A DNA stretch of 64,000 nt from an uncultured Chloroflexia bacterium (GCA_963700285.1 CAVOXA010000009.1:192001-256000), one strand, 5' to 3'. Numbered from the stretch's first letter, positions 9,729 through 51,320 are shown. Notes: generated by a model not told the origin, from the letters alone. Made by a program: numbers and translations.

Positions 9729-10039
9729 ACCCTCTCGCATCGAGTGGTCTGTGACCAGCATATCATATCCGCTTGGGACTGTCAACTGCGGTCCGGACAT
9801 ACCGTCTGGGATTCCAGGGACCGTGGATGTGGTTCTTGCCGGTCTCACGCCTTCGGGGTTGCGAGCCCAAGGCCCAACGGAAGCCCTGGCGATCTGCTCA
9901 AGGTGGAGGAGGCGCGTTGATCCCACTGCATACTTGTATGCCTTGTGGACGGTGGCGGACCGGCATTTGCCAGTGCCGTCTACCCGTGTTACACTGGCTG
10001 CCATTCTACTCTCAAGGGGCACAATCAGGCGTGGACAGA

Positions 10040-11410
10040 ATGACCAGCACCAAACATAGACTGCCAGCGCTGGCCCTCCTGGCAGCCATTGCCCTGCTTG
10101 TGACCGGCCTGGCGCCTGTAACCGCTTCACCGTCAGCCCTGCCGGGGGAAGGTCTGGCATCAGTCGCTTCAAACCCTGTACCTGGGTTTGGTTTGGCCGA
10201 TGCGCTCCAGCCGGATCCGCAGATCGAAGCGATGATCTCCCAGGTGGATGTGGCAACTTTGCGCCAATACGAAGAGTGGCTGACCGGCGAAGCAGCCGTC
10301 GATATTGGCGGCGAAGCCTATACCATTGCCACGCGGTACACCCACAGCGGTGTGCCTATTCAGAAGGCCACCCAGTTCGCCTATGAACACCTGGCTGCAT
10401 TGGGGCTTGAGGTAGCGTACCATCAATGGGAGGGCGACACCTACCCCAATGTCATCGCCACCAAAGAGGGTTTGACCAATCCGGAGCAGATCTATATCCT
10501 CAGCGCTCACCTGGACAGCCTGCCTGCAGGTACGGCTGCACCGGGGGCCGACGACAATGCCAGCGGCTCGACGGGCGTTCTGATGGCGGCTGACATCTTG
10601 AGCGAGTATGACTTTGGCTGCACCCTGAAATTTGCCCTGTGGACCGGCGAGGAGCAGGGCATGCGCGGCAGCGCCGCCTGGGCAGAATGGGCCAGTGACC
10701 AGGGCCTCGACATCCGCGGCGCTCTCAACGTGGACATGATCGCCCACGACTCGGATGATTCGCCGGTGGTAGATCTGTACGCCCGAAGCCTGGTGCCCGG
10801 TTCGGTTGAATTGGCCAATGACTTTGCTGGCGTGGTAGACCTTTATGAGTTGGACCTCGTGCCAGACGTGCTGGTCGACAACTGGTTGGGCAATCATAGC
10901 GACAATCGCTCGTTCTGGGACGAGGGCTATGCGGCCATCCTGGCCATCGAGGACTATGATGACTTTAATCCCAACTATCACACTGTCGATGACAAGCTTT
11001 CGGCTTTGAACCTGACCTATATGGCCGAAATCGTCAAGGCATCTTTGGCGACCTTTGTCCATACCAGCGGCTGCCTGCTCGACGAGGGTGTTGGTTACCT
11101 GGGTGGGCATGTCACTGTCAGCAACGGGCAGCTGCAGGTAGAGGGCGCGCCCGTCGCCGGGGCAACTGTCAGCATGCGCAGCGATACGGGCGGGACCATT
11201 TGGACCGCCACGGATGGCACTGGTTATTATGCCCGCACCCTGCCCGCCGGGACCTATACGGTGACGGCGTCTGCTGATGGCTACCGACCTGCCATCGCTG
11301 CGGGCGTGGCTATCCTGCCCGACAGCGTGACCAGCCAGGACTTTGCGCTGGCGCTGCTCCCGCATATCGGTCAACGCCTTTACCTGCCCTTGATCCAAGA
11401 TCGGGAGTAA
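10040..11410 (+). CDS. Secreted M28 family metallopeptidase with carboxypeptidase-regulatory-like domain and C-terminal 'LYLPLI' motif
   Basis: Signal peptide; 'SAHLDS', 'GADDNASG', 'GEEQG', 'NVDMI', 'SDN.SF', 'YHT..D'; ends RLYLPLIQDRE. Confidence 0.9.
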   Translation: MTSTKHRLPALALLAAIALLVTGLAPVTASPSALPGEGLASVASNPVPGFGLADALQPDPQIEAMISQVDVATLRQYEEWLTGEAAVDIGGEAYTIATRYTHSGVPIQKATQFAYEHLAALGLEVAYHQWEGDTYPNVIATKEGLTNPEQIYILSAHLDSLPAGTAAPGADDNASGSTGVLMAADILSEYDFGCTLKFALWTGEEQGMRGSAAWAEWASDQGLDIRGALNVDMIAHDSDDSPVVDLYARSLVPGSVELANDFAGVVDLYELDLVPDVLVDNWLGNHSDNRSFWDEGYAAILAIEDYDDFNPNYHTVDDKLSALNLTYMAEIVKASLATFVHTSGCLLDEGVGYLGGHVTVSNGQLQVEGAPVAGATVSMRSDTGGTIWTATDGTGYYARTLPAGTYTVTASADGYRPAIAAGVAILPDSVTSQDFALALLPHIGQRLYLPLIQDRE

Positions 11411-32996: not shown

Positions 32997-33659
32997 GTGA
33001 CCGACGTCCAGCCGATCCGCGTTGTCCTGGCCGACGACCATGCTGTCGTTCGCAAAGGCATCCGCGAATTCCTCGAGGCCGAGGATGATATCCAGGTCGT
33101 AGCCGAGGCCGCCGATGGGGCCGAGGCCGTGTCCCTGGTTGCCGAGCACCGGCCCGACGTGGCCGTACTGGATATCCAAATGCCGGTAATGACCGGTATC
33201 GACGCCACGCGGCACATCAAGGCAAAACACCCGGATGTTCGGGTACTGGTTCTCACCGCCTACGATGACGACCCCTACATCTTTGCCCTCCTTCAAGCTG
33301 GGGCCAGCGGCTACATGCTCAAGACCGCGGACTCGAGAGAGCTGGTCCATGCCGTCCGGGCCGTGTACCGGGGAGAATCCGCCCTGGATCCAGCCGTGGC
33401 CCAGAAAGTGATCCAGCAGTTGACTTCTGGCCGGCCCTTGGGCGCCCAGGCCGCAGTTGAAGCGCTCACCGAGCGCGAGGTAGAAGTTTTGCGCCTAGCA
33501 GCCAGGGGCCTGACCAACAAGGCCATCGGGCAGGCGTTAGGCATCAGCGACCGGACGGTGCAGGGCCACCTGGCCAACATCTATGGCAAGCTCAACGCCG
33601 GCAGCCGGACGGAAGCGGTGACCGAGGCGCTGAAGCAGGGCTGGATCACCATCGAATGA
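32997..33659 (+). CDS. NarL/LuxR family response regulator
   Basis: 'LADDHAVVR', 'PDVAVLDIQMP', 'LTERE.EVL.L.A.GLTNK.I', GGAGG RBS. Confidence 0.95.
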   Translation: MTDVQPIRVVLADDHAVVRKGIREFLEAEDDIQVVAEAADGAEAVSLVAEHRPDVAVLDIQMPVMTGIDATRHIKAKHPDVRVLVLTAYDDDPYIFALLQAGASGYMLKTADSRELVHAVRAVYRGESALDPAVAQKVIQQLTSGRPLGAQAAVEALTEREVEVLRLAARGLTNKAIGQALGISDRTVQGHLANIYGKLNAGSRTEAVTEALKQGWITIE

Positions 33660-35453
33660 GCCGCGACGGGACTGAGGGGAACGCGGGGCAGGCTGGCCGG
33701 TCGAGAAGGTTGCCCCTCAGGCTGCGCGGGCTGACCTTCCAGATCGTGCTGTGGACGGTCTTGCCCCTGACGCTGGTACTCATCGGCGTGGCCTTTACCG
33801 GCGTCTACAGCCACGAGCAGTCCATGCGCCGACTGGTGCAGGAAAGGGACCAGGCGCTGGCGGCAGTCAGCGCTTCCCAGGCCACGGACCTTCTGCAGAT
33901 CCGGACAGAGGCACTGGCCAGGCTGGCGGCAGAGCAGCCTTTCCACCACCAGGATTACGCGACTGTCGAAAGCTTGCTGGCCGAGGCCGGAGACCTGGAT
34001 GGGCTGTTTGCGGATTCCGCCGTCCTGGTGGACGAGAGCGGCGATCTGATTGCCAGCGTGTCCTCCCCGCCCCCGTGGACGCAGGACGAACCACTGCCTG
34101 CATTGGCCCGCACCGCAATGGCCCAGCAGGACATCGCCATCACGCCTCCCTTTGAGACAGCCCTGGGAGAGTCCGTGGTGCTGATGGGCCTGCCGATCCA
34201 AGACGAGGCGGGAACGACCTATGGCGTATTGGCCGCCGTGGTGGCGCTAGACGGCCTGGAGCTGGAGAGCTTGTTGAGCCAGGTACGGGTGGGGGAACGA
34301 GGCGCCGTCTACCTGGTGGATGGTTCGGGGCAGATTCTGGCCAGTACCCCGGCGGACAAGGCCCGTTCCAGCTTTGCTGGGCCACAGCGGCCTCAAAGTA
34401 GCACTCCAGGATAACAGCCCGGGCGCTACCCTGTGCCACGGACCGGATGGCGAGCGGATGACCCTGGCCTATGCGCCGGTGGACTATGGTGGTCTTGGCT
34501 GGCGGGTACTCATCGAAGAACCCTGGCAGGAGGTGGTCGGTCCGGTACTCCGCTACTCCCAGTTTGTGCCCCTGGTGGCCGTGCTGGCGGCCATCGTTTC
34601 GGTTCTGGCGCTCTACTATGGCCTGCGGTCCATCGTCCGGCCGCTGCAAGCCCTGGGCCAGCAGGCGGAACGTGTCGCCTGGGGAGATTTCGAGGCTACA
34701 GGCTCGCCCGTAGGCGGCGTAGAGGAGATCGAGGATCTGCGCCGGACCCTGGACCAGATGGCCGGCCGCATCCAGAGCTACCAGCACGGGATGCACGACT
34801 ATATCGCCGCCATGACCGAAGGCCAGGAGGAGGAACGGAAGCGGCTGGCGCGCGAACTGCACGACGACACTGCGCAGTCCCTCATCGCCTTGAACCAGCA
34901 GGTGGAGATGGCCCAGAGGCTTCTGACCAAAGATCCGGATCGTGCCGCTGAGCGGCTAGCCTCCATGCGAACCATGCTCACGGAGACAATCGAGGCCGTG
35001 CGTCGTTTCAGCCGCAACCTGCGGCCCATCTACCTGGAGGACCTGGGCTTTATCCCGGCTTTGGAGATGCTGACGCGGGAGGCAGACCAGAGGGAAGCCG
35101 TCACCCTGCATTTTGTCACGGCCGGCGCGATACGCCGCCTGATGCCCGACCTGGAATTGGCCGCCTATCGCATCGTCCAGGAAGCGCTCAACAACGTGAT
35201 CCAGCACGCCAGGGCAAGCGAAGCCTGGGTCGAGGTGCGCTTTGAGGACAGTCAACTGGTTCTAGCGGTTCGGGATGACGGCCGGGGGTTCGAGGCCCCC
35301 GACCTGCCCGATGCCCTGGCCCGCCGGGGACACTTTGGCTTGATGGGCATTCAGGAACGGGCGCTGCTCTACGGCGGCCAGTTGACAATCCGCTCCGAGC
35401 TGAATGGCGGTACAGAGCTGATCGCCAGCCTTCCCACCCGCACTCCAGGATGA
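33656..35453 (+). CDS. Cache/HAMP-HisKA_3 membrane sensor histidine kinase, frameshifted near 34380
   Basis: TM1, Cache-like domain, TM2, HAMP, 'EERKRLARELHDD', 'YRIVQEALNN', 'DDGRGF', 'FGL.GI.ER'. Two overlapping ORFs join into one protein. Confidence 0.88.
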
Positions 35454-38677: not shown

Positions 38678-39493
38678 CTACTGCTCCGCCTGGTAGCGCT
38701 CCACGATTTCGCGGACTGTGGAAACCTCGATGCCCAATTGACCGGCCAGATCGCGCATCCGCAAGTGGGTATCCACTTCCTCGGGCAACCCCAATTCGGC
38801 GATCAGAACCTCCAGCGGCACCTGGCACAGGTCGACGACCTCCTGCAGGGTCATCCGGCCTTTGATCTGGGAGCCGGGGAGTGGGCTGCCGTCCTCGGGC
38901 GGCAGTACTCCCGACCCGGCACCATCGCCCAAGCCCTGCCCCTGATCGCCGCCCGCACCAGATCCCTGGGGCACATGGTCATCGCCGGCCTCAGGGGTCA
39001 CAGGCTGCTGTGCAGGTACCGCAGTGGGCACGGCTGGCGCAGCAGCGGGCTCAGCTGGAATCGGAGTCGGCTTGAGAGGAGCCCGAGACGGCGCCGACTC
39101 AGGCTCTTCCACTGCCTCAGGAGCCTGTTGAGCATCACCAGGAATCCACGTTCCACCGAGGTAGGCAGCCACAGCAATCCTGAGGGCCCACACTTCCGTG
39201 CCCGGCACCAATTTCTCCAGCTCTTTCAGCTCTGTTTCAGGAGGCACTGTCTCATCGGCGCCGATCATTGTATAGAGGACGTCCAGCGGGATGTCATAGG
39301 TTTCGGAGACGGTAGCCAGCGTCATCCAACCCTTGATGCCAGCCGGATCGGCCTGGCCGCTTTCGTCCAGCATGACTTCGCCCCGGCCGCTGGTCTGCCA
39401 GACACCGGCAGCCTTGGCGATCCATACGCTGCCCAGAAGAGTGAGTACAACCAAAACCGGCATCAGGTACTTGTTCACCTTGATGGACTTCAT
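38678..39493 (-). CDS. Membrane-anchored hypothetical protein with two 'IKGxMTL..V' repeats and Pro-rich linker
   Basis: Start overlaps the polyferredoxin stop; one N-terminal TM helix; duplicated ~55-aa module. Confidence 0.75.
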   Translation of the reverse strand: MKSIKVNKYLMPVLVVLTLLGSVWIAKAAGVWQTSGRGEVMLDESGQADPAGIKGWMTLATVSETYDIPLDVLYTMIGADETVPPETELKELEKLVPGTEVWALRIAVAAYLGGTWIPGDAQQAPEAVEEPESAPSRAPLKPTPIPAEPAAAPAVPTAVPAQQPVTPEAGDDHVPQGSGAGGDQGQGLGDGAGSGVLPPEDGSPLPGSQIKGRMTLQEVVDLCQVPLEVLIAELGLPEEVDTHLRMRDLAGQLGIEVSTVREIVERYQAEQ

Positions 39494-40362
39494 ACTACAC
39501 GCTCCTTCTTGCTGGGCTTCAGTGCTCCCGGTAGGGCGGGCCCCAGCGTGACACTTAGGGCTCCGTGCCGGGGACAGACGTCCACACACTCCAGGCAGCC
39601 GATACAGTCGGCCGAGACTGCCAGATCGGCCTGGGCCACGTCGATCTTGACCGGGCACTTCAAATTGCACACGCCGCAGCCCAGGCACTGGCTTTCCTCG
39701 CGCCGGATGCGCAGCAGGCTCAGGTTGCCCATGATGCTGATGGCTCCACCCAGAGGGCAGAGGTAGCGGCACCAGGAGCGCTCGATCAAAACAGCACCGG
39801 CCGTGACAACAAGGGCCACGGCGTAGGCCGGCCAGTGCTCGGCCAGGTTGAACTCAAAGATCCAACCCAAGCCAAAGATCGTACGGTAGGGGTCATAGTC
39901 CGCGAACCACAGTCTGACGGTGGAGACGGTGGCATAGAGGATGAGGGCCAGGGTCAGGTAGCGACCGTAGGTCAAAACGCGATCTAGCCGGGCCGGGACC
40001 TTGATCTCGGGCAGGTGCAGCTTCTTTCGGATCCAGTTGAGCAGGTCCTGGAAGGCGCCAAAAGGGCAGATCCAGCCGCAAAAGGCACCTCCGGCCAGGA
40101 TCACACCGGCGATCAAGCCCAGCAGCAGGACCAGGTTGGACTGGTGGGTCTTTTGGACAAAGAGCCCTCCGCTGCTCAGCCAACGCCACAGCGTCTCAAA
40201 ACCGCCAAAGGGGCAGTAGGCGTCGATAGAAGCCAAATGCTCTGTCGTGATGACATTGTGGCGGATACTGCTGACAATGATAAAAAGCCCAAAGCCCACC
40301 TGGGTCATGCGGCGAAGCAGTTGGGTGCGAGGCCACTGGACCTTCCTGCTGGCAGTTGCCAT
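39490..40362 (-). CDS. Membrane polyferredoxin (NapH/MauN/RdxA-like 4Fe-4S binding protein)
   Basis: 'CPFGG', 'FCGWICPFG', 'WCRYLCPLG', and two CxxCxxCxxxCP motifs. Confidence 0.92.
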   Translation of the reverse strand: MATASRKVQWPRTQLLRRMTQVGFGLFIIVSSIRHNVITTEHLASIDAYCPFGGFETLWRWLSSGGLFVQKTHQSNLVLLLGLIAGVILAGGAFCGWICPFGAFQDLLNWIRKKLHLPEIKVPARLDRVLTYGRYLTLALILYATVSTVRLWFADYDPYRTIFGLGWIFEFNLAEHWPAYAVALVVTAGAVLIERSWCRYLCPLGGAISIMGNLSLLRIRREESQCLGCGVCNLKCPVKIDVAQADLAVSADCIGCLECVDVCPRHGALSVTLGPALPGALKPSKKERVV

Positions 40363-40405
40363 GATGGATCCCCCCTTGCCACGTGTTGTTCCCCCGAACT
40401 TGGCC

Positions 40406-40459
40406 AGTGTAATGGCAGACTGTGAAGAAGTTGTGAAAAAGAAATGCATAAACTGTGAA
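40406..40459 (-). promoter_or_regulatory. TTCACA-N5-TTCACA direct-repeat box plus -10 (TACACT)
   Basis: tgtgaa at 40421, 40432 and 40454 (11-bp phase); -10 element 9 nt downstream on the minus strand. Confidence 0.65.
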
Positions 40460-40683
40460 GGCCCAGCAGCCCTCGCATGCCTATTTGGCAGCATGGATCT
40501 GTGATAGACCATGGGCAGGAAGGTCAATGAAGCGTGGGGCAAGCGCACGGTTCTCGTGGCCTCGAGGGAGTTGACACCTGCCAATTCCTATACTACACTC
40601 TTTTGAATATAGAAACTGTGAGGATACCCGTATCCGTCTGGGCAGAATTCCGTTAGAGTGATTAGTTGATAACCATTGCTTCC

Positions 40684-41244
40684 ATGCCTGCGGACGAGAA
40701 GGCTCTGATCCAGTCAGCTCAGCAGGGCGACGCCGAGGCCTGCACTGTGCTGTACAATCGTCATTATGATGCTGTCTATCGCTACTGCTACTACCGGGTA
40801 GGCGATGTACACCTGGCTCAGGATCTCACAAGCGAGGTCTTTGTACGCATGGTGGACAAGCTGGACACATTCAGAGTACGTGGGCGGCCACTGCTGGCCT
40901 GGCTGTACACCATCGCCCGCAATCTGATCACTGACATGCAACGCCGGCAGGGAAAGGCGGCCCTCATGCCGCTGAACGAAGCATCTGAGTTCCACATGGG
41001 TGACGAGGCAGATCTCACCAGAGACGTGGAACGGAAGCTCGAGGCCGACTGTCTGGCAGCCGCTCTCCGGCATCTGACCGAGGAACAACGCCAGGTGATA
41101 CTGCTCAAGTTCATGGAAGACCTGGATAATGGCCAGGTTGCCCGCCTGCTGGGCAAGACCGAAGGGGCCGTAAAGTCGTTGCAACACCGGGCGCTAGGAG
41201 CATTGCGCCGAGCCGTCACGAAAGAACGCTGTTATGAAGCATGA
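40684..41244 (+). CDS. ECF-family RNA polymerase sigma-70 factor
   Basis: 'AQDLTSEVF', 'AWLYTIARN', 'L..EQRQVILLKF', 'VA.LLGKTEGAVKSLQHRAL..LR'. Confidence 0.95.
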   Translation: MPADEKALIQSAQQGDAEACTVLYNRHYDAVYRYCYYRVGDVHLAQDLTSEVFVRMVDKLDTFRVRGRPLLAWLYTIARNLITDMQRRQGKAALMPLNEASEFHMGDEADLTRDVERKLEADCLAAALRHLTEEQRQVILLKFMEDLDNGQVARLLGKTEGAVKSLQHRALGALRRAVTKERCYEA

Positions 41245-42616
41245 CCTTGATACCGCACTGGACCAATGTCTGGTCAATCTGCGCGGTGGGATGGACATCG
41301 AGAGTTGTCTGGCACAGTACCCAGAGGATGCCCACAAGCTGCGGCCCTTGCTGCAGTTGGTGACGCAGGTAGGCGGGGTGATCATCCCGGCTTCGTCCTC
41401 TGCAGCACGCGCCGCGGGGCAGGAGCAGATGCTGACCGCGCTGGCCAGGAGGCGCGAGCGGGAAGGCGCGACCGATCGGTTCGTCCGTGCCATCAAACGG
41501 ATGGCAATTGGGCTTGTCCCAGGAAGACTCTGGGGCCCGGCGCCAGGTTGGAGCCTGACAGCCGCCGCACTGCTGGTCATCGTGCTGGTTGTGGCTGGCG
41601 GAGTGACTGTCAGGGCCTCAGCAGAAAGTCTGCCGGGTGGAACTCTTTACCCACTGAAACTGGCCAGCCAAAGGTTACAAGTGGCGCTCACCTTCGATGA
41701 GGCGAGGCAGCAAGGACTGGAGGTACAGTTTGAAGCCCAAAGACGACTGGATGTGCAGGCGGTGCTCAAGGGTGGCCAGCAGGCGTCCGTCGAATTCCAG
41801 GGAGTGCTCCAGCGCATGGAGGGAGACATCTGGGTGGTGGGCGGCCTATCAGTCACTTTGCAGGACTCGACCGAGATCTTGGGGCAGCCTCAGCGGGGGG
41901 CCCTGGTCCGGGTGCGGGGCAGCCTGCCCGGCAACGGTAGCCTGCTGGCCACCTGGTTGCACGTGGAGCCAGGCATAACTCAGGAGCCCAGCCAGACACC
42001 ATCGGCAACGGCAACAGAAACGGTGGTTCCGTCTGAGACACCAGAGCCAACCGACACGCCGCAACCGAGCGACACACCACAACCAACAGAAACTGCTGAG
42101 CCAATCGAGACGCCTGAGCCAAGGAGCTCCCCAGAGCCAAAGGAGACGGAAGGGCCGGACGAGACTCCCGAAGCAGGCGAAACCAGTGAGTCCGAGGCGA
42201 CGTCAGAACCGGTCGAGACACCAGAAGCTAAGGGCACACCGGAGCCCGGGGACGAAGCGGAACCCACCGAAGCACCAGAGCCCGAGGATACTCTAGAACC
42301 CGGAGGCGAACCGGACCCGACCGACGCGCCAGAGCCCGAGGATACTCCGGAGCCCGAACACAAACCGAAGCCAACCGATGCGCCAGAGCCCGAGCATACT
42401 CCGGAGTCCGAACACAAACCGAAACCAACCGATGTGCCAGAGCCCGAGCATACTCCGGAGCCCGAACACAAACCGAAAGCAACCGATGCGCCAGAGCCCG
42501 AGCATACTCCAGAGCATGAGGACGAAGCGGAACCGACCCACGCACCAGAGTCGGACGAGGCGCCAGAGGCTGGCAAAGCAGGTCAGGGTGAGCTAGCCAT
42601 ACCGCCTGACGATTAG
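41234..42616 (+). CDS. Putative anti-sigma factor, DUF5667 + DUF5666-like domain with acidic Pro-rich repeat tail
   Basis: Overlaps the sigma gene; 'LDQCL..L', TM helix, 'SLPG..LYPLK...', OB-like 'F.G......W.VGG..V', EPE/TP repeats. Confidence 0.85.
   Translation: MKHDLDTALDQCLVNLRGGMDIESCLAQYPEDAHKLRPLLQLVTQVGGVIIPASSSAARAAGQEQMLTALARRREREGATDRFVRAIKRMAIGLVPGRLWGPAPGWSLTAAALLVIVLVVAGGVTVRASAESLPGGTLYPLKLASQRLQVALTFDEARQQGLEVQFEAQRRLDVQAVLKGGQQASVEFQGVLQRMEGDIWVVGGLSVTLQDSTEILGQPQRGALVRVRGSLPGNGSLLATWLHVEPGITQEPSQTPSATATETVVPSETPEPTDTPQPSDTPQPTETAEPIETPEPRSSPEPKETEGPDETPEAGETSESEATSEPVETPEAKGTPEPGDEAEPTEAPEPEDTLEPGGEPDPTDAPEPEDTPEPEHKPKPTDAPEPEHTPESEHKPKPTDVPEPEHTPEPEHKPKATDAPEPEHTPEHEDEAEPTHAPESDEAPEAGKAGQGELAIPPDD
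42270..42550 (+). repeat. Intragenic 54-bp tandem repeat (18 aa: EPE(H/D)TPEPEHKPKPTDAP)
   Basis: About 5 copies, three near-identical, e.g. ccagagcccgagcatactccggagcccgaacacaaaccgaa. Confidence 0.85.
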
Positions 42617-42719: not shown

Positions 42720-43694
42720 ATGGATCTTCGCGCGACCAGCTTTGAGGGGCGTCTTGCCCATAACCACGTCAGCCGCAGGCAGTTTCTCAAGTTCTGCGGA
42801 CTGATGACGGCCACGCTGGCCCTGCCGGCCCACTATACCGGCCGCGTTGCCAAGGCCCTGATGACAGCACCACGCCCGCCCGTGGTCTGGCTCGAGTTCC
42901 AGGACTGCACCGGCGACACCGAATCGTTCCTGCGGGCCAGCCAGCCGGGGGTGGACGAGCTGCTGCTGGACATTCTTTCCCTGGACTATCACGAGACACT
43001 CATGGCACCGGCCGGTGCCATGAGCGAGAAATCGCTGCAGGACACGATGAGCCAACTTTCCAGGCCAGTACCTCTGCGTCGTGGAGGGTTCGATCCCCAC
43101 CGCCGCCGGCGGCATCCACTGCATGATCCGCGGCCGGACGGCGCTCAGCATCGCCCAGGAGGTATGCAACAACGCCCTGGCAACCCTCGCCGTGGGCACC
43201 TGTGCCTGGGATGGCGGCCTGGCCGCCGCCGCCGCCCAACCCCACCGGGGCGGTTGGCGTCAGGGATGCCGTGCCCGGGCTGCAGCCCGCTCATCAACCT
43301 GCCCGGCTGCCCGGCCAATGTCGTCAACATCACGGCGACGATCATCCACTTATCTGACCTTCAACGAGTGGCCGCAGACCGACAGTTCGGGGCGGCCCCA
43401 CTTTGCCTATGGCGAGGAGATCCACGACGAGTGCGAACGGCACGACCACTATGAGCACGAACGGTTCGTGCTCGGCCTGGGGCGACCAGGGACACCAGCA
43501 AGGCTGGTGTCTGTTCAAGATGGGCTGCAAAGGACCGGAAACCCACCACAATTGCCCCTCAGTCAAATGGAATGACGGTACCTGCTGGCCCATCGAGGCC
43601 GGGCACGGCTGTCGTGGGCTGCGCCGAAGCGGGCTTCTGGGATCGGATGACACCCTTCTACGTGCCGCTGAACGACGATGAGCATGATGACTAG
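42720..43694 (+). CDS. Group-1-type [NiFe] hydrogenase small subunit (Tat-exported), multiple frameshifts
   Basis: SRRQFLK Tat motif; '[16 protein letters not shown]', 'YHETLM', 'VEGSIP', 'GTCA..GG', 'PGCP', 'HDEC', '[17 protein letters not shown]...WN...[11 protein letters not shown]....FWD'. Ends [12 protein letters not shown] with no TM anchor. Confidence 0.9.
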
Positions 43695-43798
43695 CGTCAA
43701 GCGGCTGGAACTGAACGCTACCTCGTGGCAGGGTGGACAGGATCCAAACCAGGGAAGCTTCCCCCACGAGAACCAAACATACGGAAGGAGAAACCGGT

Positions 43799-45608
43799 AT
43801 GTCCGATCCAACGCCCAATGGGGCGAATAAGCTTCATCTGCCGCTCATACAGGGCCATGATACCTCGGGGAGAGGCGTGCCGCCGGCCTCACAGAGGATT
43901 GCCATCGATCCCATCACGCGGATCGAGGGACACCTGCGCCTCGAGGTCCAGATCGAGAACGGCCAGGTCACCGACGCCTGGAGCGCGGGCATGATGTTCC
44001 GGGGCATCGAGCTGCTGCTGCCGGGGCGGGATCCCCGGGATGCCTGGGTCTTTGCCCAGCGCATCTGCGGCGTCTGAACGACGGTTCACGCCATCTGCTC
44101 CGTGCGAGCAGTTGAAAACGCCCTGGGCATCACCATTCCCGACAATGCCCGCATCCTGCGCAACCTGCTTGAAGGCGCCCAGTTCGTCCAGGACCACGTG
44201 ATTCACTTTTACCATCTCCACGCCCTGGACTGGGTGGACATCGTCAGCGCCCTGTCCGCCGATCCGGCGGCCACCAGCCACCTGGCCCGGTCCATCTCGG
44301 ACTGGCCCAACTCCAGCCCGGCCTACTTTCAGGGGGTGCGGGATCGCCTGCAGACCTTTGTGGACAGCGGCCAACTGGGCCTTTTCGCCAACGCCTACTG
44401 GGGCCATCCCGCGCTACAAGCTGCCGCCCGAGGCCAATCTCCTGGCCGTGGCCCACTACCTGGAGGCGCTGGACTGGCAGCGCGAGATCATCAAGATGCA
44501 TGCCATTCTGGGCGGCAAGAACCCCCATCCGCAGACCTACCTGGTGGGCGGCATGGCCATTCCGGTCGACCCGAACAGCCAGCATGGCATCAATCCGGAG
44601 CGGATCGCCCAGCTGAAGCATCTGGCCGCCCAGGCTCTGGAGTTTGTGCAGAAGGTCTATCTCCCCGACCTGCTGCTGATCGCCTCCTACTATACGGAAT
44701 GGGCCGGACCTGGGCGAGGGAGTGGGCAACTATCTGGCCTATGGCGACTTTCCCGCCGACACTAGCGGCAATCCGGCTGCCCTGTGGCTGCCACAGGGCG
44801 TCGTCTGGAACAAGGACCTCGGCAGCACCGCCAGAAGCCCTGGACCACAACCAGATCCGGGAATATGTCACCCACTCCTGGTACAACTATGCGGAGGGAG
44901 ACGGCGCTGGCCAAGCATCCGTGGGATGGAGAGACGGACTGGAACTATACCGGGCCGCAGCCACCCTTCGACCAACTCGATACGGACGGCAAGTACTCCT
45001 GGCTCAAGGCGCCGCGCTACAACGGCCAGCCCATGGAGGTCGGACCGCTGGCGCGCATGGTGGTGGCCTATGCCGCCGGCCACAGCCGCGTGCGAGAGCT
45101 CGTTCGACTCAGGTGCTCGACCAGCTGGGCGTTGGACCTGAGGCCCTCTTCTCGACGCTGGGCCGGGTAGCGGCGCGGGGCATCGAAACGCTGGTCATCG
45201 CCGAAAAGCTGCAGGGCTGGATCAGCGAACTGGAAACCAACATGAACAGCGGAAACCTGGCCATCCACAACGGGGCGCAAGTGGGATCCCAGCACCTGGC
45301 CGGCCCAGGCCATGGGCTGGGGCATCACCGAAGCGCCGCGCGGTGCGCTGGGCCACTGGGTGCGCATCGAGAACGGGACGATCGCCAACTACCAGTGCGT
45401 CGTGCCCAGCACCTGGAACGGCTCGCCCCGCGACGCCCTCGGCCAGCGCGGCCCCTGGGAGAAGGCGCTCATCGGCACGCCGGTGGCCGATCCGGAAAAG
45501 CCGGTCGAGGTGCTGCGCACCATCCATTCCTTCGATCCCTGCATGGCCTGCGCCGTGCACATCGTCGATCTAGATGGTCGCGAGCTGACAAGGATCCAGA
45601 TCGTATGA
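43799..45608 (+). CDS. Group-1-type [NiFe] hydrogenase large subunit with in-frame UGA in L1 motif (putative Sec); several frameshifts
   Basis: AAGGAG RBS; '[11 protein letters not shown]', 'FRGIE', '[14 protein letters not shown](TGA)TTVH', '[10 protein letters not shown]', 'GGKNPH', '[10 protein letters not shown]', '[10 protein letters not shown]', 'YQ.VVPSTWN', L2 '[12 protein letters not shown]' plus a 15-aa C-terminal extension. Confidence 0.92.
44075..44114 (+). other. In-frame UGA and candidate bacterial SECIS hairpin
   Basis: TGA at 44075-44077; stem CTGCTC (44095-44100), loop CGTGC, GAGCAG (44106-44111). The loop starts 24 nt after the UGA with G at loop position 2. Confidence 0.65.
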
Positions 45609-45631
45609 AACAAGTACCGGGAGCAAGATAG

Positions 45632-45895
45632 ATGTGCCTGGCCATTCCAGCACAGATCAGGTCTATTGACGGCTTTGAAGCACAAGTGGAGATCGGGGGG
45701 GTGAGCCGCACCATCAGCGTGGGGCTCACCCCTGATGCCTCGGTCGGCGATTACGTGTACGTCCACACCGGCTTTGCCATCAGTGTGGTTGACGAGGCTG
45801 AAGCCCAAGAGAGCCTGCAGTTGCTGCGGGAACTCGCCGATACCTACCCGGTGGAAGAGTTGTTCCTGTCTACCGGCGACCTCGCCCCGCCGTAG
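45632..45895 (+). CDS. hypC: HypC/HybG/HupF hydrogenase maturation chaperone
   Basis: MCLAIPA N-terminus; 'VGDYVYVHTGFAI'. Confidence 0.95.
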   Translation: MCLAIPAQIRSIDGFEAQVEIGGVSRTISVGLTPDASVGDYVYVHTGFAISVVDEAEAQESLQLLRELADTYPVEELFLSTGDLAPP

Positions 45896-45919
45896 CTGAC
45901 AAGGACGGCGTTGGACACT

Positions 45920-45948
45920 TTTACACCCAGTGAGAAATGTGGTAAAAT
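45920..45948 (+). promoter_or_regulatory. Sigma-70-like promoter of cytochrome gene
   Basis: TTTACA-N17-TAAAAT with TGTG extended -10. Confidence 0.55.
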
Positions 45949-46066
45949 AATGGGGCAGCCATCTTGCGGATGCATCCGGCGGAATAAGCTTAGAACAAGC
46001 GCACGCGGTTGATCTTGGGCCTACGACAGGCCCCCTTACAGAACGTTCAAGGAGGAGGTAGCAACT

Positions 46067-47416
46067 ATGGATGTTGTTAGGTCGAAATGGCTGATAATCA
46101 GCGTCTTGTTCCTGGCTGGCCTCTGTGCCAGCATCGTCGCACTCAGCGCCTGGACCGAACCGGCTGCCGCCGCGCCCGAACTGGGTGCGACGGGGCCCGG
46201 TCTTGAAACCGGCTCTCCGGCTGCTGGCAATTATGTCGTTCTAACTTGGAACGATCTGGGCATGCACTGTTACAACCCTGACTTTCAGGACATCGGCGTC
46301 CTGCCTCCCTGGAATACCCTTTGGGCGCAGGTTGTCCGGGTGGGGAACCCGCCCCAGATCGTCAGCAGCGGCATCAAGGTGACGTTTGAGTTTCCCGACA
46401 ACACCTACTCGGTTGGCAAGTCCGACTTCTGGGACCAGAGCCCCTACCGGAGCGGCCAAAACGCTGAACTGCTCTTCAATCTGCCCCAGCCCTTGCCGGC
46501 AAACGTAGGCTTGACCGGTACTGGCTTGGCAGGTGAGATGGAGCTGCGCGGAGATCACTTTGTGGCTGAAGGAATCCCGTTGACAGAGTACCGGGACAGT
46601 GCCCCCTCAACTCCCTACCCCTACCAGTTGGCGACGGTCATCGCCCGTGACGCCAGCACCGGCCAGGAACTGGCCCGTACCGTGACCGTCGCGCCAGTCT
46701 CGACAGAGATGCACTGCGACAACTGTCACTATGACAATGGCCCTGGCAATGAGGATTTCGCCACAGGGGTAGTGGAGCAGAACATCCTGTCCCAGCACGA
46801 TGAAGAGAACATGGACAAGTACCCAACCGGTCACCAGGGAGCATTGATGAACCGGCGGCCCGTTCTCTGCGCCGAATGCCACGCCTCGAACGCGCTGCAA
46901 GCCCCCGGTGCGCCGGGCGTCCCGAACCTGTCGAAGGCCATCCACGACAAGCACGAGGGCAAGGTCCCCGACACGCTGGCGGGCTGCTACAACTGCCATC
47001 CAGGCCCCCAGACCGAGTGCCTGCGCGGCGTCATGTCGGACCAATATGACATGGATTGCATGGACTGCCACGGCGGCATGGATGCCGTCTCCAAGAACCC
47101 CAATCCCTGGCTCAACGAACCGCGCTGCGACAACGCAGCCTGCCACGGCAGCGCCTACCAGCAGGACCAGCCCCTGTACCGGATGTCCAAGGAGCACGGC
47201 GGCGTCTATTGCGAGGGTTGTCACGACAGCACGCATGCCATCGCCCCCAGCGCCGAACCGAATGACGCCATCAAGTTCATCGCCTGGCAGGGGCACGCGG
47301 GCACGCTGGACACCTGCACCGTCTGCCACGCTTCTCAGCCTTCGGGTGGGGGTCCGCACGGCTCCGAGCCGTCACAGCGTTGGTACCTCTACCTGCCGCT
47401 CGTCGTGCGGAACTAG
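46067..47416 (+). CDS. Secreted multiheme cytochrome c (6 CxxCH + 1 CxxxxCH) with C-terminal 'YLYLPLV' motif
   Basis: Signal peptide; N-terminal 'WNDLGMHC' domain; CDNCH, CAECH, CYNCH, CMDCH, CDNAACH, CEGCH, CTVCH; AGGAGG RBS. Confidence 0.92.
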   Translation: MDVVRSKWLIISVLFLAGLCASIVALSAWTEPAAAAPELGATGPGLETGSPAAGNYVVLTWNDLGMHCYNPDFQDIGVLPPWNTLWAQVVRVGNPPQIVSSGIKVTFEFPDNTYSVGKSDFWDQSPYRSGQNAELLFNLPQPLPANVGLTGTGLAGEMELRGDHFVAEGIPLTEYRDSAPSTPYPYQLATVIARDASTGQELARTVTVAPVSTEMHCDNCHYDNGPGNEDFATGVVEQNILSQHDEENMDKYPTGHQGALMNRRPVLCAECHASNALQAPGAPGVPNLSKAIHDKHEGKVPDTLAGCYNCHPGPQTECLRGVMSDQYDMDCMDCHGGMDAVSKNPNPWLNEPRCDNAACHGSAYQQDQPLYRMSKEHGGVYCEGCHDSTHAIAPSAEPNDAIKFIAWQGHAGTLDTCTVCHASQPSGGGPHGSEPSQRWYLYLPLVVRN

Positions 47417-47601: not shown

Positions 47602-48603
47602 CTAGCCGCCCCGCCGTCCCCCGCCAGCCCACAGGGGCCGGCCGTTCTCCTCACGGATGAGCACACTCTGGCCGGTGCTGGCGTTGTCGATCTGACCGAT
47701 CTCGAGGTCTTCGCCCTCATAGAAGCCGGTTAGTGTCAGGTTGTCACCAACCTGGACCTGGAAACCCTGTTCCTGGACGAAGCGCCAGGCGCGGCCATCT
47801 ATGACGATCTCTTGCCCATCCACAGCCTGCACGACCAGAGCGTCGCTCGCTACACTGGAAACGCTGCCCTGGACCTCCAGCCAGCCGTCAACCTGGGCCT
47901 GGCCGGTGCCACTTCCATCGCCAGATACCTCTGCCTGGCCCAGCCCACCAGAGCCGCCCTGGCCGCGTCCACCCTGACCACGCCCACCTTGACTCGCAAG
48001 CGCCTGCTGCTCGGCAGCACGCTGGCCGCTACCCGACCAGGCCGGCCGGCCATCGTCGTCACGGAGGCTGATGGTCTGGCCATCAGCCAGCCTCGTCACC
48101 TGGGTCGCCTTCAGTTCATCGTCCTCCCAGTAGCCCGCCACCTGCACCCGGTCGCCGGCCGCAAGCGTGAACCCCTGGGCCTCCATGTAGCCCGGCCCCG
48201 TGCCTACTACAATCTCCTCGCCACCATCCGTCTTGACGACCAGATCTACTCCGGTTGCTGGAGCCTGTACCACGGTCCCTTCGTAGGCAATCTGCTCACC
48301 CGAGGGAGCTTCAAAGTTGGGATACTGCCGCTCGGCAACACCAGCGCCCTGCCCATAGCCACCGCCGCTATACCCCTGGGTATCGACCCCTGCGCTCCGG
48401 CCCCGGCCATAGCCCTGACCGCCTGCCACTGCCTCGCCTGCCAAGTCTCCTACCTCGACCCGGCCCTGACCGTAGCCCCGGCCCTGTGCCTCGGCCACAT
48501 TCTCTGTCTTGTCCAGTGTGCGAATTATACCTCCCGCCACCAGGACCCCAATCAACCCCACCAACAGCGTTCCCAACACGATTTTCTTAATCATCTCGTT
48601 CAT
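47602..48603 (-). CDS. Exported Gly-rich protein with two OB-fold-like repeats
   Basis: N-terminal TM/signal, GxGxG linkers, two 'G.V......L.V....G.EI.......QGF.....GD...V.G..E........LR...GRP.W' modules. Confidence 0.75.
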   Translation of the reverse strand: MNEMIKKIVLGTLLVGLIGVLVAGGIIRTLDKTENVAEAQGRGYGQGRVEVGDLAGEAVAGGQGYGRGRSAGVDTQGYSGGGYGQGAGVAERQYPNFEAPSGEQIAYEGTVVQAPATGVDLVVKTDGGEEIVVGTGPGYMEAQGFTLAAGDRVQVAGYWEDDELKATQVTRLADGQTISLRDDDGRPAWSGSGQRAAEQQALASQGGRGQGGRGQGGSGGLGQAEVSGDGSGTGQAQVDGWLEVQGSVSSVASDALVVQAVDGQEIVIDGRAWRFVQEQGFQVQVGDNLTLTGFYEGEDLEIGQIDNASTGQSVLIREENGRPLWAGGGRRGG

Positions 48604-48696
48604 CCTTTCAGTCAGTCTGTTCTCTTTGTTTCGAGTCCCAACGTTTCCAAGTGTACCTTCACGTGATTGTCTTTGAAGTACGAATTTCGTTCCGCC

Positions 48697-49371
48697 CTAT
48701 ACTTGATCACTACTGGCCAGAACAGCCTTGCCTGGCACTTGCGACGGTCCAGTCTGCGGCTGGGGCAGCAGCGAGAGGAAAAACCGGGCGGTCACATTCT
48801 TGACCCAGCGCCAGTGGATGGCAAAGTGAAGCACCGCTGCTACGATCACGACTACTCCGCTCCAGGTGTGGATCAGGTCCCAGGTAGTCCGGCTGAAGAG
48901 AAAGCCTGGATCCCAGTTTGGATTGCGCCCGCCCTCAAAACCACCGGAAGGGCCAAAGACAAAGTAGATGCCCGACAGGGCGCAGAGCAGAAAGCTAATG
49001 GCAATCACGAGGTTGATGGCGACATTCACTTTGGCTCCCTTGGAAAGCTTGGGGCCCTGTGGCCGCATGCCGCTCACCATACGCCCGCTCATCCTCTTGA
49101 CCCACTGCCAGTGGATGGCGAAATGGACGACGATTGCCACGATCATCAGCAGGCCACCCCACAGGTGCAGGTCACTCCAGGTGTGGCGGCCGAACAGGAT
49201 GGTGAGGCCATAGGTCGCATTGCGCCCGCCCTGGTAGCCGCCCGAAGGCAAGAAAAGAAAGTAGACTCCCGTCAGGGCAGCCACGATACCGCCTATTAAT
49301 ACGGCGAGATCGATGAGCCAGTTCTGTCGTGTTTGCATCGACATTCTAATGGGTTTGGGATTCTTCATCAT
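48697..49371 (-). CDS. DUF4405 tandem-domain membrane protein (possible b-heme binding)
   Basis: Two repeats of 'LTG.Y.....R.TW..(L/I)H.W.G......HFAIHW.WVK'. Confidence 0.85.
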   Translation of the reverse strand: MMKNPKPIRMSMQTRQNWLIDLAVLIGGIVAALTGVYFLFLPSGGYQGGRNATYGLTILFGRHTWSDLHLWGGLLMIVAIVVHFAIHWQWVKRMSGRMVSGMRPQGPKLSKGAKVNVAINLVIAISFLLCALSGIYFVFGPSGGFEGGRNPNWDPGFLFSRTTWDLIHTWSGVVVIVAAVLHFAIHWRWVKNVTARFFLSLLPQPQTGPSQVPGKAVLASSDQV

Positions 49372-49468: not shown

Positions 49469-49695
49469 AGTTTCATGTGGACGCTGCTGCAGCAGGCTAA
49501 CCAGCCACACAATGCGCGTGCCTATCCTTGACCGGCCAGACGAATAGGCCTTTACTTGGGACACCCAGGAACGAATCATCCTCTCTATTTCCTCAAGAGA
49601 CGACTGGACAGCGAATGCCCGATGTGCTATAATCGTGAATGCCGGAACAATCTTGGGTGAGCGATTCACCCCAATTCAAGGAAGGAGTTGCCGAG

Positions 49696-51320
49696 ATGAA
49701 CAAGATACTGAGCGACAGACGCCTGGTACTTGCCCTTGCCGGTACCTTACTGCTGTTGGCCCTGGTGGTCAGCGCCTGTGGGCCTGGGGGTGGCACTACG
49801 GAGACCCTGGTCGTATTGATCGACAACGATGAAGGGCCGATCACACCAGCCAACTTTAACACCTTCATTGGCTATTATATGGGCGGCTGGGTATATGATC
49901 AACTGTTCGTCCGCTCAACGGACCTGATCTCAGTGCCCGCCCTGGCCACGGAGGCCGAATCAGAGCGACGATGGGCTGACCTGGGAGTATCACCTTGCGC
50001 GAGGACGTCAAGTGGCACGATGGCGAGCCCTTTACGGCGGATGACGTGGTCTTTACCTACAACTGGCTCAAGGCAGCCGGCCGGGCCCCAGCCCTGGAGG
50101 TGATGGACACCATCCAGGCCAACGGTGAGCATGGGGTGACCATCAGCCTGCAGGAGCCAAGTCCATTCTTCCTCGACGAGGCTCTGGCCCAGTACTATAT
50201 CATGCCCGAACACGTCTGGAAGGATCAGGAACCGGTCAGCGGGGAACTGAGCCAGTTCCAGGGCAAGATCGGCACGGGGCCTTACAGACTGCTGGAGATC
50301 GTTCCCGGTGAGTCATACACCTTCGAAGCGAACCCCGACTATTACCGCGGGGAACCACTGGTACAAAACCTGATCGCCAAGATCGTAAAGGACCGCACCC
50401 AGCAGTTCAACCAGCTTAAGGCTGGTGATGCGTCCGCTGTCCTGTCCTCAGTCCCCCCGTCGCTGGTGGAGGAGCTTGCCGGGACAGAAGGCATCGACCT
50501 AGCCCAAGGATCCGATTTCTTCAACTATGTGTTCTATGCCAACGGCTCCCGGCCCCCATTCGACAATCCAAAAGCACGGCAGGCCATAGCCCTGGCCATC
50601 GATGCCCAGAAGCTGGTGGATACCGTGTTGCTGGGACAGGGCATCCTACTGCCCGTGAGCTACTACCACCCGGACCTGCCCTGGGCCATAAACATTCCTG
50701 GTGAGTACAACCCGGAGGCGGCGAAGGCTTTGCTGGACGAAGCGGGTCTCGTGGACTCTGATGGCGACGGCATTCGGGAGGTCAATGGTGGGCCGGCCAG
50801 CTACGAGGTCCTTTGCGATATCAACAACACCGTAGAAGTGCGATCCACTGAGCTGATCGTTGACATGCTGAAGGACGTCGGCATCCAATCAGAGCAGCGC
50901 TGCATGGACATTGACACCGCGGTGACCTACATCTGGCCCAGCTTTGTGGCCGTGCCCGACCCCGAGTATGGCCTCGGAATCTGGGGCTGGTCTTCTGCCC
51001 CCCAGATCCAGCGCGGGTTCCTGCGTTTCCTGACCAACTGCAATCTCGAAGAGATTGGCTGGGCAAACTTGACGGGAACCTGCGACCCCACGCTGGACGA
51101 GCTTTTTGCCGAGTATGTGACCAACCCCGACCCGGCCCGGCAGGAGGAGCTGGCGAAGGCTATCCAGGAGCAGTTTGCCGAGACGCTGGTCTTTATCCCG
51201 ATCATGTCCCCCGGAGGCAATTTTGCCTATCGTCCTGCCGACTATGATGGCTGGCAGTATATGAAGGGGACAGGGATCATGACCCTGTGGTCCTTCTTGC
51301 CGGACGACGCGGCAGAATAG
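49696..51320 (+). CDS. Peptide/nickel-type (family 5) ABC substrate-binding lipoprotein, frameshifted near 49960-49995
   Basis: Lipobox VSAC; 'YDQLF...P.LA', 'LREDVKWHDGEPFTADDVVFT', 'IGTGPY', 'R.AIA.AID'. Confidence 0.88.

What the first reader, a model, noticed from the sequence alone, without database searches (positions are those of the whole stretch)
42720..47416. Possible surface-displayed hydrogenase-multiheme cytochrome module linked by a shared Chloroflexota sorting-like motif
Seen: the small subunit has a Tat signal but ends in an acidic tail with no TM anchor. No HyaC/HybB-like cytochrome b, HybA or maturation protease gene adjoins it. The large subunit has an extra ~30-aa N-terminal extension containing KLHLPLIQG (43829-43855). 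The same motif type ends the adjacent heptaheme cytochrome (WYLYLPLVVRN) and the M28 peptidase (RLYLPLIQDRE). Known: (Y/F)LP(L/I)(I/V) motifs are common at the C-termini of secreted Chloroflexota proteins. Inference: in a probable monoderm, hydrogenase and cytochrome may be co-anchored outside the membrane, coupling H2 turnover to extracellular electron transfer rather than directly to quinone. The motif may have moved to the N-terminus because the large-subunit C-terminus is cleaved during maturation.
Basis: partly seen in the sequence, partly recalled or inferred. Interest (0 to 1): 0.82.

Follow-up and report, generated by a model that had tools for sequence, protein, structure and literature searches.

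The report
Hydrogenase swaps membrane anchor for tag
A branch of hydrogen-oxidising enzymes in Chloroflexota has lost both its membrane anchor and its membrane cytochrome partner and instead carries a short surface-protein tag at the front of its catalytic subunit, so it is likely clipped into the cell envelope; this copy also likely uses selenocysteine at an unusual metal-bridging site.

Summary
Real, and wider than this genome. The window's small- and large-subunit genes carry 12 frameshifts that are probably assembly errors; a same-genus genome holds them intact. The large subunit belongs to one well-supported clade (100/99) nested among group 1f-like Chloroflexota enzymes. In it, 111 of 122 large subunits carry an N-terminal YLP-box (NCBIfam's unexplained putative sorting motif), 21 of 21 scoreable small subunits lack the C-terminal helix, and 0 of 20 loci have cytochrome b (113 of 138 outside). 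The heptahaem cytochrome is adjacent in only 3 of 33 clade loci and has its own promoter-like site, so a dedicated module is weakly supported; genome-level co-occurrence is enriched. Extracellular electron transfer is untested. The tagged hydrogenase clade was not found in ten paper searches or in scan notes.

The parts
40571..40599 (+). sigma-70-like promoter site in front of the ECF sigma gene
   Evidence: TTGACA-17-TACACT, 10 of 12 matches; 2 sites found against 0.9 in shuffles; function inferred
40666..41244 (+). ECF sigma factor, conserved upstream of the hydrogenase in this family
   Evidence: Pfam Sigma70_r2/r4_2; sigma plus anti-sigma upstream in 7 of 25 clade loci with enough flank, an eighth with a sigma hit only
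41234..42616 (+). probable membrane anti-sigma factor (DUF5667, DUF5666, Glu/Pro-rich tail)
   Evidence: Pfam; anti-sigma role inferred from position and one helix
42720..43694 (+). [NiFe]-hydrogenase small subunit, Tat signal, no C-terminal helix; 6 frameshifting insertions in this assembly
   Evidence: intact G001 copy hits TIGR00391 above cut-off and TIGR01409
42771..42791 (+). twin-arginine motif SRRQFLK
   Evidence: present in 111 of 120 best hits; TatC in the genome
42906..42917 (+). proximal-cluster motif CTGD: Asp in place of the second Cys
   Evidence: Asp in 116 of 120 best hits
43662..43691 (+). short acidic C-terminal tail of the small subunit, where relatives have a membrane helix
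   Evidence: 117 of 120 best hits acidic, 0 of 120 with a helix
43799..45608 (+). [NiFe]-hydrogenase large subunit with N-terminal extension; 6 frameshifting insertions in this assembly
   Evidence: intact G001 copy PF00374 E 1.5e-227
43829..43855 (+). N-terminal YLP-box-like motif KLHLPLIQG, followed by a Pro-rich linker (41 residues longer in G001)
   Evidence: orthologous motifs hit NF053834 above cut-off in 4 of 12 N-terminal pieces; the window's own does not
44075..44077 (+). in-frame TGA at the second Cys of RxCGxC; likely selenocysteine at a Ni-Fe bridging position
   Evidence: conserved in G001 and 32 distinct CxxU and 68 UxxU sequences; unchanged in short-read contigs that span it
44095..44111 (+). 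SECIS-like hairpin, 6-bp stem, G-U in the loop, 17 nt behind the TGA
   Evidence: 6 of 6 pairs in 78 of 100 TGA forms, 0 of 104 Cys forms
45534..45605 (+). C-terminal nickel motif DPCMACAVH (no selenocysteine) and 15-residue extension of the protease-cleaved type
   Evidence: cleavage inferred from family knowledge and the adjacent protease in 14 of 20 clade loci
45632..45895 (+). hypC maturation chaperone
   Evidence: PF01455, TIGR00074
45920..45948 (+). sigma-70-like promoter site of the cytochrome gene
   Evidence: TTTACA-17-TAAAAT with TG before the -10 box; function inferred
46067..47416 (+). exported heptahaem c-type cytochrome (N-terminal beta-sandwich with NDLGMHC, haem domain, C-terminal YLP-box 47381-47413)
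   Evidence: no solved relative by sequence or clear fold match
11375..11407 (+). C-terminal YLP-box of the M28 peptidase (gene 9773-11410); same tag, unrelated cargo

Best explanation
This is a group 1f-like uptake [NiFe]-hydrogenase from a Chloroflexota clade that lacks the small-subunit membrane helix and the adjoining cytochrome b gene and carries a YLP-box at the N-terminus of the large subunit, which likely tethers the Tat-exported enzyme in the cell envelope, where it would pass electrons to envelope c-type cytochromes. Steps: (1, shown) anchor loss, cytochrome b loss and tag gain mark one clade. (2, inferred from family knowledge) the two subunits fold and mature in the cytoplasm, the large-subunit C-terminus is clipped, and the pair leaves through Tat on the small subunit's signal. 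(3, inferred) the tag on its Pro/Thr linker binds non-covalently, probably as the missing first beta-strand of domain 1 of a four-repeat exported protein (G000 C10:832404-833783). (4, inferred, weakest) H2-derived electrons go to a shared pool of envelope cytochromes, of which the neighbouring YLP-tagged heptahaem protein is a likely but not dedicated member, and from there to membrane modules encoded elsewhere, much as soluble periplasmic hydrogenases use cytochrome c3. (5, strongly inferred) in this copy the bridging ligand of the N-terminal nickel motif is selenocysteine. The frameshifts are probably assembly errors.
For: Clade support 100/99 in IQ-TREE on 40 rows, 0.999 and 0.897 in FastTree on 168 and 301 rows. 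Tag in 111 of 122 clade tips, often 3-8 residues behind the initiator Met. Small subunit without helix in 21 of 21 scoreable clade loci, with helix in 110 of 111 scoreable loci outside (48 of 180 not scoreable by that pattern, inspected). Cytochrome b downstream 0 of 20 against 113 of 138; the sister enzymes have helix and cytochrome b. Tag consensus matches C-terminal tags of exported proteins and the first strands of repeats 2-4 of the candidate dock; repeat 1 begins directly after the signal peptide without that strand in 28 of 28 aligned rows and has seven strands against eight in the model (pLDDT 92). Dock homologues in 16 of 20 other clade genomes. Cytochrome present in 5 of 6 clade genomes against 2 of 16 others in this family and 10 of 11 against 29 of 126 in a second family. 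Selenocysteine. Purifying selection dN/dS 0.115 and 0.131, as in intact neighbours.
Against: No binding, localisation or expression evidence exists here. The window's own tag is divergent (matrix score 9.3; no NCBIfam hit). Eleven of 122 clade tips lack a recognisable tag, among them L075, whose genome has a dock homologue. The dock was not found in 4 of 20 clade genomes (incomplete assemblies). The small-subunit tail and the cytochrome are both acidic (mature pI 4.9), which does not favour docking through that tail. This genome has really lost its membrane-bound paralogue, leaving a decayed remnant, so decay of this copy too cannot be fully excluded. Engineered Sec at the equivalent position of E. 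coli Hyd-1 (C79U) gave 13% activity and lower O2 tolerance (PMC8020662, passages), so the benefit of the natural form is unclear.
Confidence: 0.55

Rival explanations
1. One reading: hydrogenase and heptahaem cytochrome are a dedicated, co-anchored pair on the outer surface that couples H2 to extracellular acceptors or donors (minerals, humics, partner cells).
For: Adjacent in two different arrangements (downstream in the window and G001, directly upstream in L158) and in 0 of 70 well-flanked loci outside the clade; enriched co-occurrence per genome; both carry the tag; weak Pfam similarity to MtrC/MtrF haem domains below cut-off.
Against: Adjacent in only 3 of 33 clade loci; own promoter-like site; 38 of 401 class genomes hold the cytochrome and the tagged hydrogenase was identified in only 3 of them among the matches inspected; cytochromes in two other clade genomes end without a tag (L354, L355); clade genomes G006, G409, G411, G413, G419 gave no cytochrome hit; both partners acidic.
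Confidence: 0.17
2. The tag is a release or loose-retention signal with some other partner; the enzyme acts as a diffusible or particle-bound extracellular hydrogenase (H2 scavenging, or H2 formation from reduced minerals) without a fixed cellular acceptor.
For: No membrane partner is conserved in the locus; tag-less clade members exist; dock not found in 4 of 20 genomes; the NCBIfam models call the motif only 'putative'.
Against: Strand-for-gap match between tag and dock repeats; a released enzyme is costly; variable Pro/Thr linkers are typical of tethered enzymes (own knowledge).
Confidence: 0.14
3. The window's copy is a pseudogene; the clade is real but this genome no longer makes the enzyme.
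For: 12 frameshifts in 2.2 kb, none in hypC or the cytochrome; not at long homopolymers; the paralogue in this genome has decayed; contigs lacking the extra bases are about 91% alike, so other strains.
Against: All 12 are insertions, no nonsense codon other than the conserved TGA; dN/dS as in intact neighbours; similar patches occur elsewhere in both assemblies, including hyp and group 3 genes and selD.
Confidence: 0.08
4. The TGA is decoded as cysteine (tRNA-ReC type recoding) or serves as a selenium-dependent on/off switch, so the active site holds sulfur.
For: PMC13582414 (parts 1-4 of 6 read) describes such tRNAs, mostly with UxxU forms; many clade members use Cys; SelD only partial in G000 and not found in G001.
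Against: SelA, SelB and a canonical tRNA-Sec are present in both genomes; that paper found tRNA-ReC in only about 2% of CxxU/UxxC genomes. I did not search for tRNA-ReC here.
Confidence: 0.06

Closest known systems
HydDB group 1f [NiFe]-hydrogenases ('oxygen-protecting'; Roseiflexus enzyme called 1f in 10.1101/457697, passages; group listed in PMC5037454 Table 1)
   Same: Large subunit falls in one supported branch (97/99) with Roseiflexus and other Chloroflexota enzymes; Tat small subunit, non-Cys second ligand of the proximal cluster, cleaved C-terminus.
   Different: No small-subunit helix, no cytochrome b, N-terminal YLP-box on a Pro/Thr linker, Asp rather than Asn at the proximal cluster, CxxU in part of the clade.
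YLP-box putative sorting motif (NCBIfam NF050076 sort_motif_YLP, NF053834 ultrashort_CTERM)
   Same: Same consensus; cytochrome and M28 peptidase tails pass NF053834's cut-off; 4 of 12 large-subunit N-terminal pieces do.
   Different: Here it is at the N-terminus of a protein that has no signal peptide of its own and leaves as a Tat passenger, which a C-terminal cleavage-and-attach mechanism cannot explain.
N-terminal CxxU/UxxU [NiFeSe] variants (group 4: PMC13582414; two group 1 CxxU sequences credited there to Baltazar et al. 2011, not seen by me)
   Same: TGA at the second Cys of the N-terminal motif, SECIS with G in the loop, Sel genes present.
   Different: Group 1 enzyme, exported, in a clade that mixes CxxC and CxxU; common in relatives rather than rare.
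Soluble periplasmic group 1a/1b hydrogenases of sulfate reducers with cytochrome c3 (PMC8020662, passage)
   Same: Anchor-less small subunit, multihaem c cytochrome as likely acceptor.
   Different: Different branch (about 40 solved chains score well below the clade, best is 3MYR); host lacks a classical outer membrane (PMC13319060, passages), so retention needs a tag. The lipid anchor on the N-terminus of the D. vulgaris [NiFeSe] large subunit is a recalled parallel; two papers checked did not mention it.
Extracellular Tat-exported hydrogenase of corrosive Methanococcus maripaludis strains (recalled, no call)
   Same: Hydrogenase working outside the membrane without cytochrome b.
   Different: Archaeal, unrelated attachment module; no evidence here for action on solid surfaces.

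Membership tests
Group 1 respiratory [NiFe]-hydrogenase | Large subunit with RxCGxC and DPCxxCxxH motifs, closest to group 1 models and structures | tested here: met
   (second Cys of the first motif is TGA)
Group 1 respiratory [NiFe]-hydrogenase | Small subunit with Tat signal and three Fe-S cluster sites | tested here: met
HydDB group 1f | Large-subunit phylogeny with 1f references | tested here: inconclusive
   Groups with Roseiflexus-titled enzymes (97/99), which 10.1101/457697 calls 1f; HydDB classifier and reference set were not available, and the defining paper is not held
HydDB group 1f | Membrane anchor on the small subunit and adjoining cytochrome b (as in the sister loci; as a group trait recalled) | tested here: not met
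   0 of 21 with helix, 0 of 20 with cytochrome b
Canonical [NiFeSe]-hydrogenase (group 1a, HysA) | Sec in the C-terminal DPUxxC motif | tested here: not met
   DPCMACAVH; NF045518 410 bits against cut-off 780
N-terminal CxxU selenoprotein | Conserved in-frame TGA aligned with Cys of homologues | tested here: met
N-terminal CxxU selenoprotein | SECIS-like hairpin with loop G, specific to TGA forms | tested here: met
   78 of 100 against 0 of 104, with compensatory pairs; stem defined on the window's sequence; folding z only -1.6
N-terminal CxxU selenoprotein | selA, selB, selC, selD in the genome | tested here: inconclusive
   selA, selB, tRNA-Sec found; selD only a partial, broken match in G000 and none in G001
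N-terminal CxxU selenoprotein | Selenium shown in the protein | not testable with these tools
   needs mass spectrometry
YLP-box protein (NF050076/NF053834) | Score above the curated cut-off | tested here: inconclusive
   cytochrome and peptidase tails pass NF053834 but not NF050076; window and G001 large-subunit pieces give no hit; 4 of 12 orthologous pieces pass NF053834
YLP-box protein (NF050076/NF053834) | Exported protein | tested here: inconclusive
   export as Tat passenger is inferred from the small-subunit signal and TatC
Sortase-type C-terminal sorting signal | Motif followed by membrane helix and basic tail at the C-terminus | tested here: not met
   no helix follows the motif in either protein; five sortases exist in the genome but need such a tail (own knowledge)
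MtrC/OmcA-type outer-surface cytochrome | Pfam above cut-off and fold match | tested here: inconclusive
   PF22113 26.4 bits against 30; MtrC domain I at Z 6.4, rmsd 3.4, 101 aligned, among unrelated beta-sandwiches

The most novel reading that the evidence does not exclude
Chloroflexota run a plug-in surface redox platform: a four-repeat envelope protein captures any cargo that offers a YLP strand, and so holds a selenium-bridged hydrogenase next to YLP-tagged multihaem cytochromes outside the membrane, giving an H2-to-mineral or cell-to-cell electron route with no outer-membrane conduit and no quinone-coupled cytochrome b.
Probability: 0.2. Interest if true: 0.86.

Novelty: new variant of a known kind. 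Interest (0 to 1): 0.66.

Why it matters
Group 1 hydrogenases are normally either membrane-anchored or trapped in a periplasm. This clade shows a third solution in a phylum without a classical outer membrane, and it is common in sediment Anaerolineae. It also constrains an open question, how the YLP-box works: a tag at the N-terminus of a signal-less Tat passenger argues against C-terminal cleavage and for non-covalent strand donation, and it offers an assayable cargo (H2 oxidation) to test that. The clade mixes near-identical Cys and Sec versions at the bridging ligand, a natural pair for asking what selenium does there; gene callers truncate the Sec versions.

Tried and rejected
Fold search of the dock gave only generic Ig-like rows, best per-domain match T. 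maritima TM1070. Cytochrome: no solved relative by sequence, no Foldseek hit at E 0.001, no Z of 8 or more; haem domain poorly modelled. No RNA holder listed. Paper searches that found nothing on the tag or on a tagged hydrogenase; none for NiFeSe with group 1f; scan notes had nothing on a YLP-tagged hydrogenase. Rejected: downstream start at GTG 43877 (not conserved; motif conserved behind strong starts); TGA as sequencing error; sortase substrate; protease absence as a clade trait; motif matches in L115 and L160-L162 (upstream of the true start). SelB presence does not separate Sec from Cys forms (3 of 5 against 4 of 5). The NapH-like gene at 39490-40584 is near the hydrogenase in only 4 of 33 loci and in differing positions, so it was not taken as the partner. 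L173, outside the clade, has a short small-subunit tail and was not examined further.

Full report
Observation. The region holds, on the + strand, an ECF sigma and probable anti-sigma gene (40666-42616), a hydrogenase small subunit (42720-43694), a large subunit (43799-45608), hypC (45632-45895) and an exported heptahaem cytochrome (46067-47416). Both hydrogenase genes are in pieces: against the same-genus genome G001, which has the same gene order with open frames, the window has 6 plus 6 frameshifting insertions between 43051 and 45277 and none in hypC or the cytochrome. All are extra bases; read in the G001 frame there is no stop codon except one TGA shared with G001; dN/dS is 0.115 and 0.131, against 0.125 and 0.15 for the intact neighbours. 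Short-read contigs of related strains, about 91% alike, lack the extra base at the sites listed (12 rows shown, 11 more not shown). Both assemblies have such patches elsewhere. I read the frameshifts as assembly errors, with the caveat that this genome has truly lost a membrane-bound paralogue present in G001, leaving a decayed 3' remnant beside hypE and the protease gene, and that the insertions are not in long homopolymers.

The tag. In this genome 45 of 6217 heuristically called genes end in [YFHW]LP[LIVMF][IVL] within 12 residues of the C-terminus, against about 5.6 expected; 31 of the 45 have an N-terminal hydrophobic stretch against 1511 of 6217 overall. Earlier scan notes pointed to NCBIfam's YLP-box; I confirmed that the cytochrome and M28 peptidase tails hit NF050076 and NF053834, passing the cut-off of the second only. 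The window's large-subunit motif has His at the aromatic position and gives no hit; contigs from two other samples have Tyr there, and 4 of 12 orthologous N-terminal pieces pass NF053834. No paper on the motif was found.

The clade. I collected homologous loci from the family, class, genome and metagenome collections (each scan returns only its best rows) and the best 120 of 7998 protein hits. Large subunits with the N-terminal tag form one clade: FastTree 0.999 on 168 rows, 0.897 on 301 rows, IQ-TREE 100/99 on a 40-row subset whose bootstrap had not fully settled; the variable N-terminus was cut off before alignment. Of 122 clade tips 111 carry the tag; 11 have a degenerate, missing or possibly mis-started N-terminus. 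The tag often sits 3-8 residues behind the first Met and is followed by a Pro/Thr linker of 5 to over 100 residues; 78 of 94 extensions score 8 or more on the genome's motif matrix, 3 of 1880 shuffles do. Named records in the clade are titled Anaerolineae, Chloroflexia, Thermoflexales or Ktedonobacterales. Of 180 loci, 132 could be scored for the small-subunit tail: 21 of 21 in the clade have no helix, 110 of 111 outside have one; the 48 others are contig ends or have a differently shaped tail or a membrane gene in between. The best 120 small-subunit hits all lack a helix, 117 end acidic, 111 show the Tat motif, 116 have Asp as second proximal ligand. Cytochrome b follows the large subunit in 0 of 20 clade loci and 113 of 138 others; a protease follows in 14 of 20. 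The nearest outside relatives, including Roseiflexus-titled enzymes that 10.1101/457697 (passages) calls group 1f, have helix, cytochrome b and protease. So one lineage lost anchor and cytochrome b and gained the tag; the order of events is not resolved.

The cytochrome. It has seven haem motifs, all-family invariants, an N-terminal beta-sandwich and no close solved relative; look-alikes occur in several phyla. It adjoins the hydrogenase in 3 of 33 clade loci: downstream in the window and G001, directly upstream in L158; 0 of 70 well-flanked outside loci have it. A sigma-70-like site lies just before it. It was found in 38 of 401 class genomes and 39 of 137 genomes of a second family, mostly without a tagged hydrogenase among the matches I inspected (about half of the class matches). 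Conversely, clade genomes tend to have it: 5 of 6 (one a contig-end fragment) against 2 of 16 in this family, 10 of 11 against 29 of 126 in the second (G418 was counted with the others though its small subunit later proved anchor-less). These genomes are kin and differ in size, so the p-values overstate. In five further clade genomes tested singly, 2 had it. Cytochrome and small-subunit tail are both acidic. I conclude that it is a plausible, not a dedicated, partner. The genome has 11 other multihaem reading frames, none with a tag.

Selenocysteine. The second Cys codon of RICGVC is TGA in the window, in G001 and in many relatives; the set holds 32 distinct CxxU, 68 UxxU and 104 CxxC sequences, and the C-terminal motif never had TGA in the rows printed (one search's output was partly cut). 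A 6-bp hairpin 17 nt downstream is fully paired in 30 of 32, 48 of 68 and 0 of 104, with compensatory changes and G at loop position 2 in 100 of 100 against 61 of 104; on its own its folding is unremarkable (z -1.6). SelA, SelB and tRNA-Sec are in both genomes; SelD is partial in G000 and was not found in G001. PMC13582414 (parts 1-4 of 6 read; supplements not opened) reports N-terminal CxxU and UxxU forms in group 4 and credits two group 1 CxxU sequences to Baltazar et al. 2011, which I could not see. PMC8020662 (passages) shows this position is a bridging ligand and that engineered C79U keeps 13% activity. Two reviews list only UxxC for large subunits (PMC13188914, PMC9312934, passages). The scan had noted this Sec form on other DNA. 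It is therefore real but not the new part.

How the tag may work. My motif scan had flagged an exported 446-residue protein (G000 C10:832404-833783) with internal tag-like strands; earlier notes proposed such a protein as a dock, and I took the idea from them. It has four repeats; repeats 2-4 begin with a strand whose consensus matches the tag, repeat 1 starts directly after the signal peptide without it in 28 of 28 rows, and the model shows seven strands in domain 1 against eight in domain 2. One larger homologue has a tag-like strand just before the first repeat (L347). Homologues were found in 53 of 121 class genomes with the single query and in 16 of 20 other clade genomes with the profile. 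It matches no Pfam family. The complex prediction could not be run, so docking rests on sequence and single-chain structure only. A tag that works at either end, or internally, and on a signal-less Tat passenger fits non-covalent strand donation better than C-terminal processing. Chloroflexota envelopes are multilayered without evidence of a classical outer membrane (PMC13319060, passages), so 'outside the membrane' need not mean exposed to the medium.

Verdict. Observation confirmed; anchor-for-tag swap shown as a clade-wide pattern; tethering likely; dedicated pairing with the heptahaem cytochrome and extracellular electron transfer unproven and weakly supported by synteny. A new variant of a known kind, not found in the ten paper searches or in scan notes; most subscription papers were not searchable.

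Noticed in passing
G000:C10:558306-558420 against L235:8650-11758 (G001): The membrane-anchored CxxU group 1 hydrogenase that G001 has between hypE and the protease gene is deleted in this genome, leaving a decayed remnant of the large-subunit 3' end; hypA, B, F, D, E and the protease remain.
   Followed up: partly
L321:6447-7784 (G000:C10:832404-833783): Four-repeat exported beta-sandwich protein without Pfam family whose first repeat lacks the YLP-like strand; candidate dock for tagged proteins.
   Followed up: partly
L050, L084, L101, L172, L237-L243 and others: Membrane-anchored group 1 large subunits with TGA at both N-terminal cysteines (UxxU) in Anaerolineae, Nitrospirota and Methylomirabilota; 68 distinct sequences in my set.
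   Followed up: partly
L208:1-5118: Two hydrogenases in tandem: a cytochrome b-linked one with protease and hypC, directly followed by the anchor-less, tagged one.
   Followed up: no
window 40666-42616: ECF sigma and DUF5667/DUF5666 membrane protein precede the tagged hydrogenase in 7 loci of this family; possible control by an outside signal. No ECF promoter motif was sought.
   Followed up: partly
window 38678-40584 (-) and 47602-49371 (-): NapH-like polyferredoxin membrane protein with an unknown exported partner upstream, and a DUF4405 cytochrome b561-like protein with a Gly-rich exported protein downstream; both blocks also flank the G001 locus.
   Followed up: partly
window 45960-45990: Palindrome GGATGCATCC between the cytochrome promoter-like site and its start, conserved in G001; possible regulator site.
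   Followed up: no
G000:C1:551000-585000: Cluster of at least seven multihaem cytochrome reading frames (3-15 haem motifs), none with a YLP-box.
   Followed up: no
L309, L310, L313, L316, L320, L369, L370: A more distant group 1 branch (about 55% identity) in which an Isp2/HdrD-like Fe-S gene lies directly before the large subunit; no tag.
   Followed up: no
window 33656-35453 and 49639-51320: A histidine kinase and an ABC substrate-binding protein are also split by apparent frameshifts, in line with patchy assembly errors.
   Followed up: no
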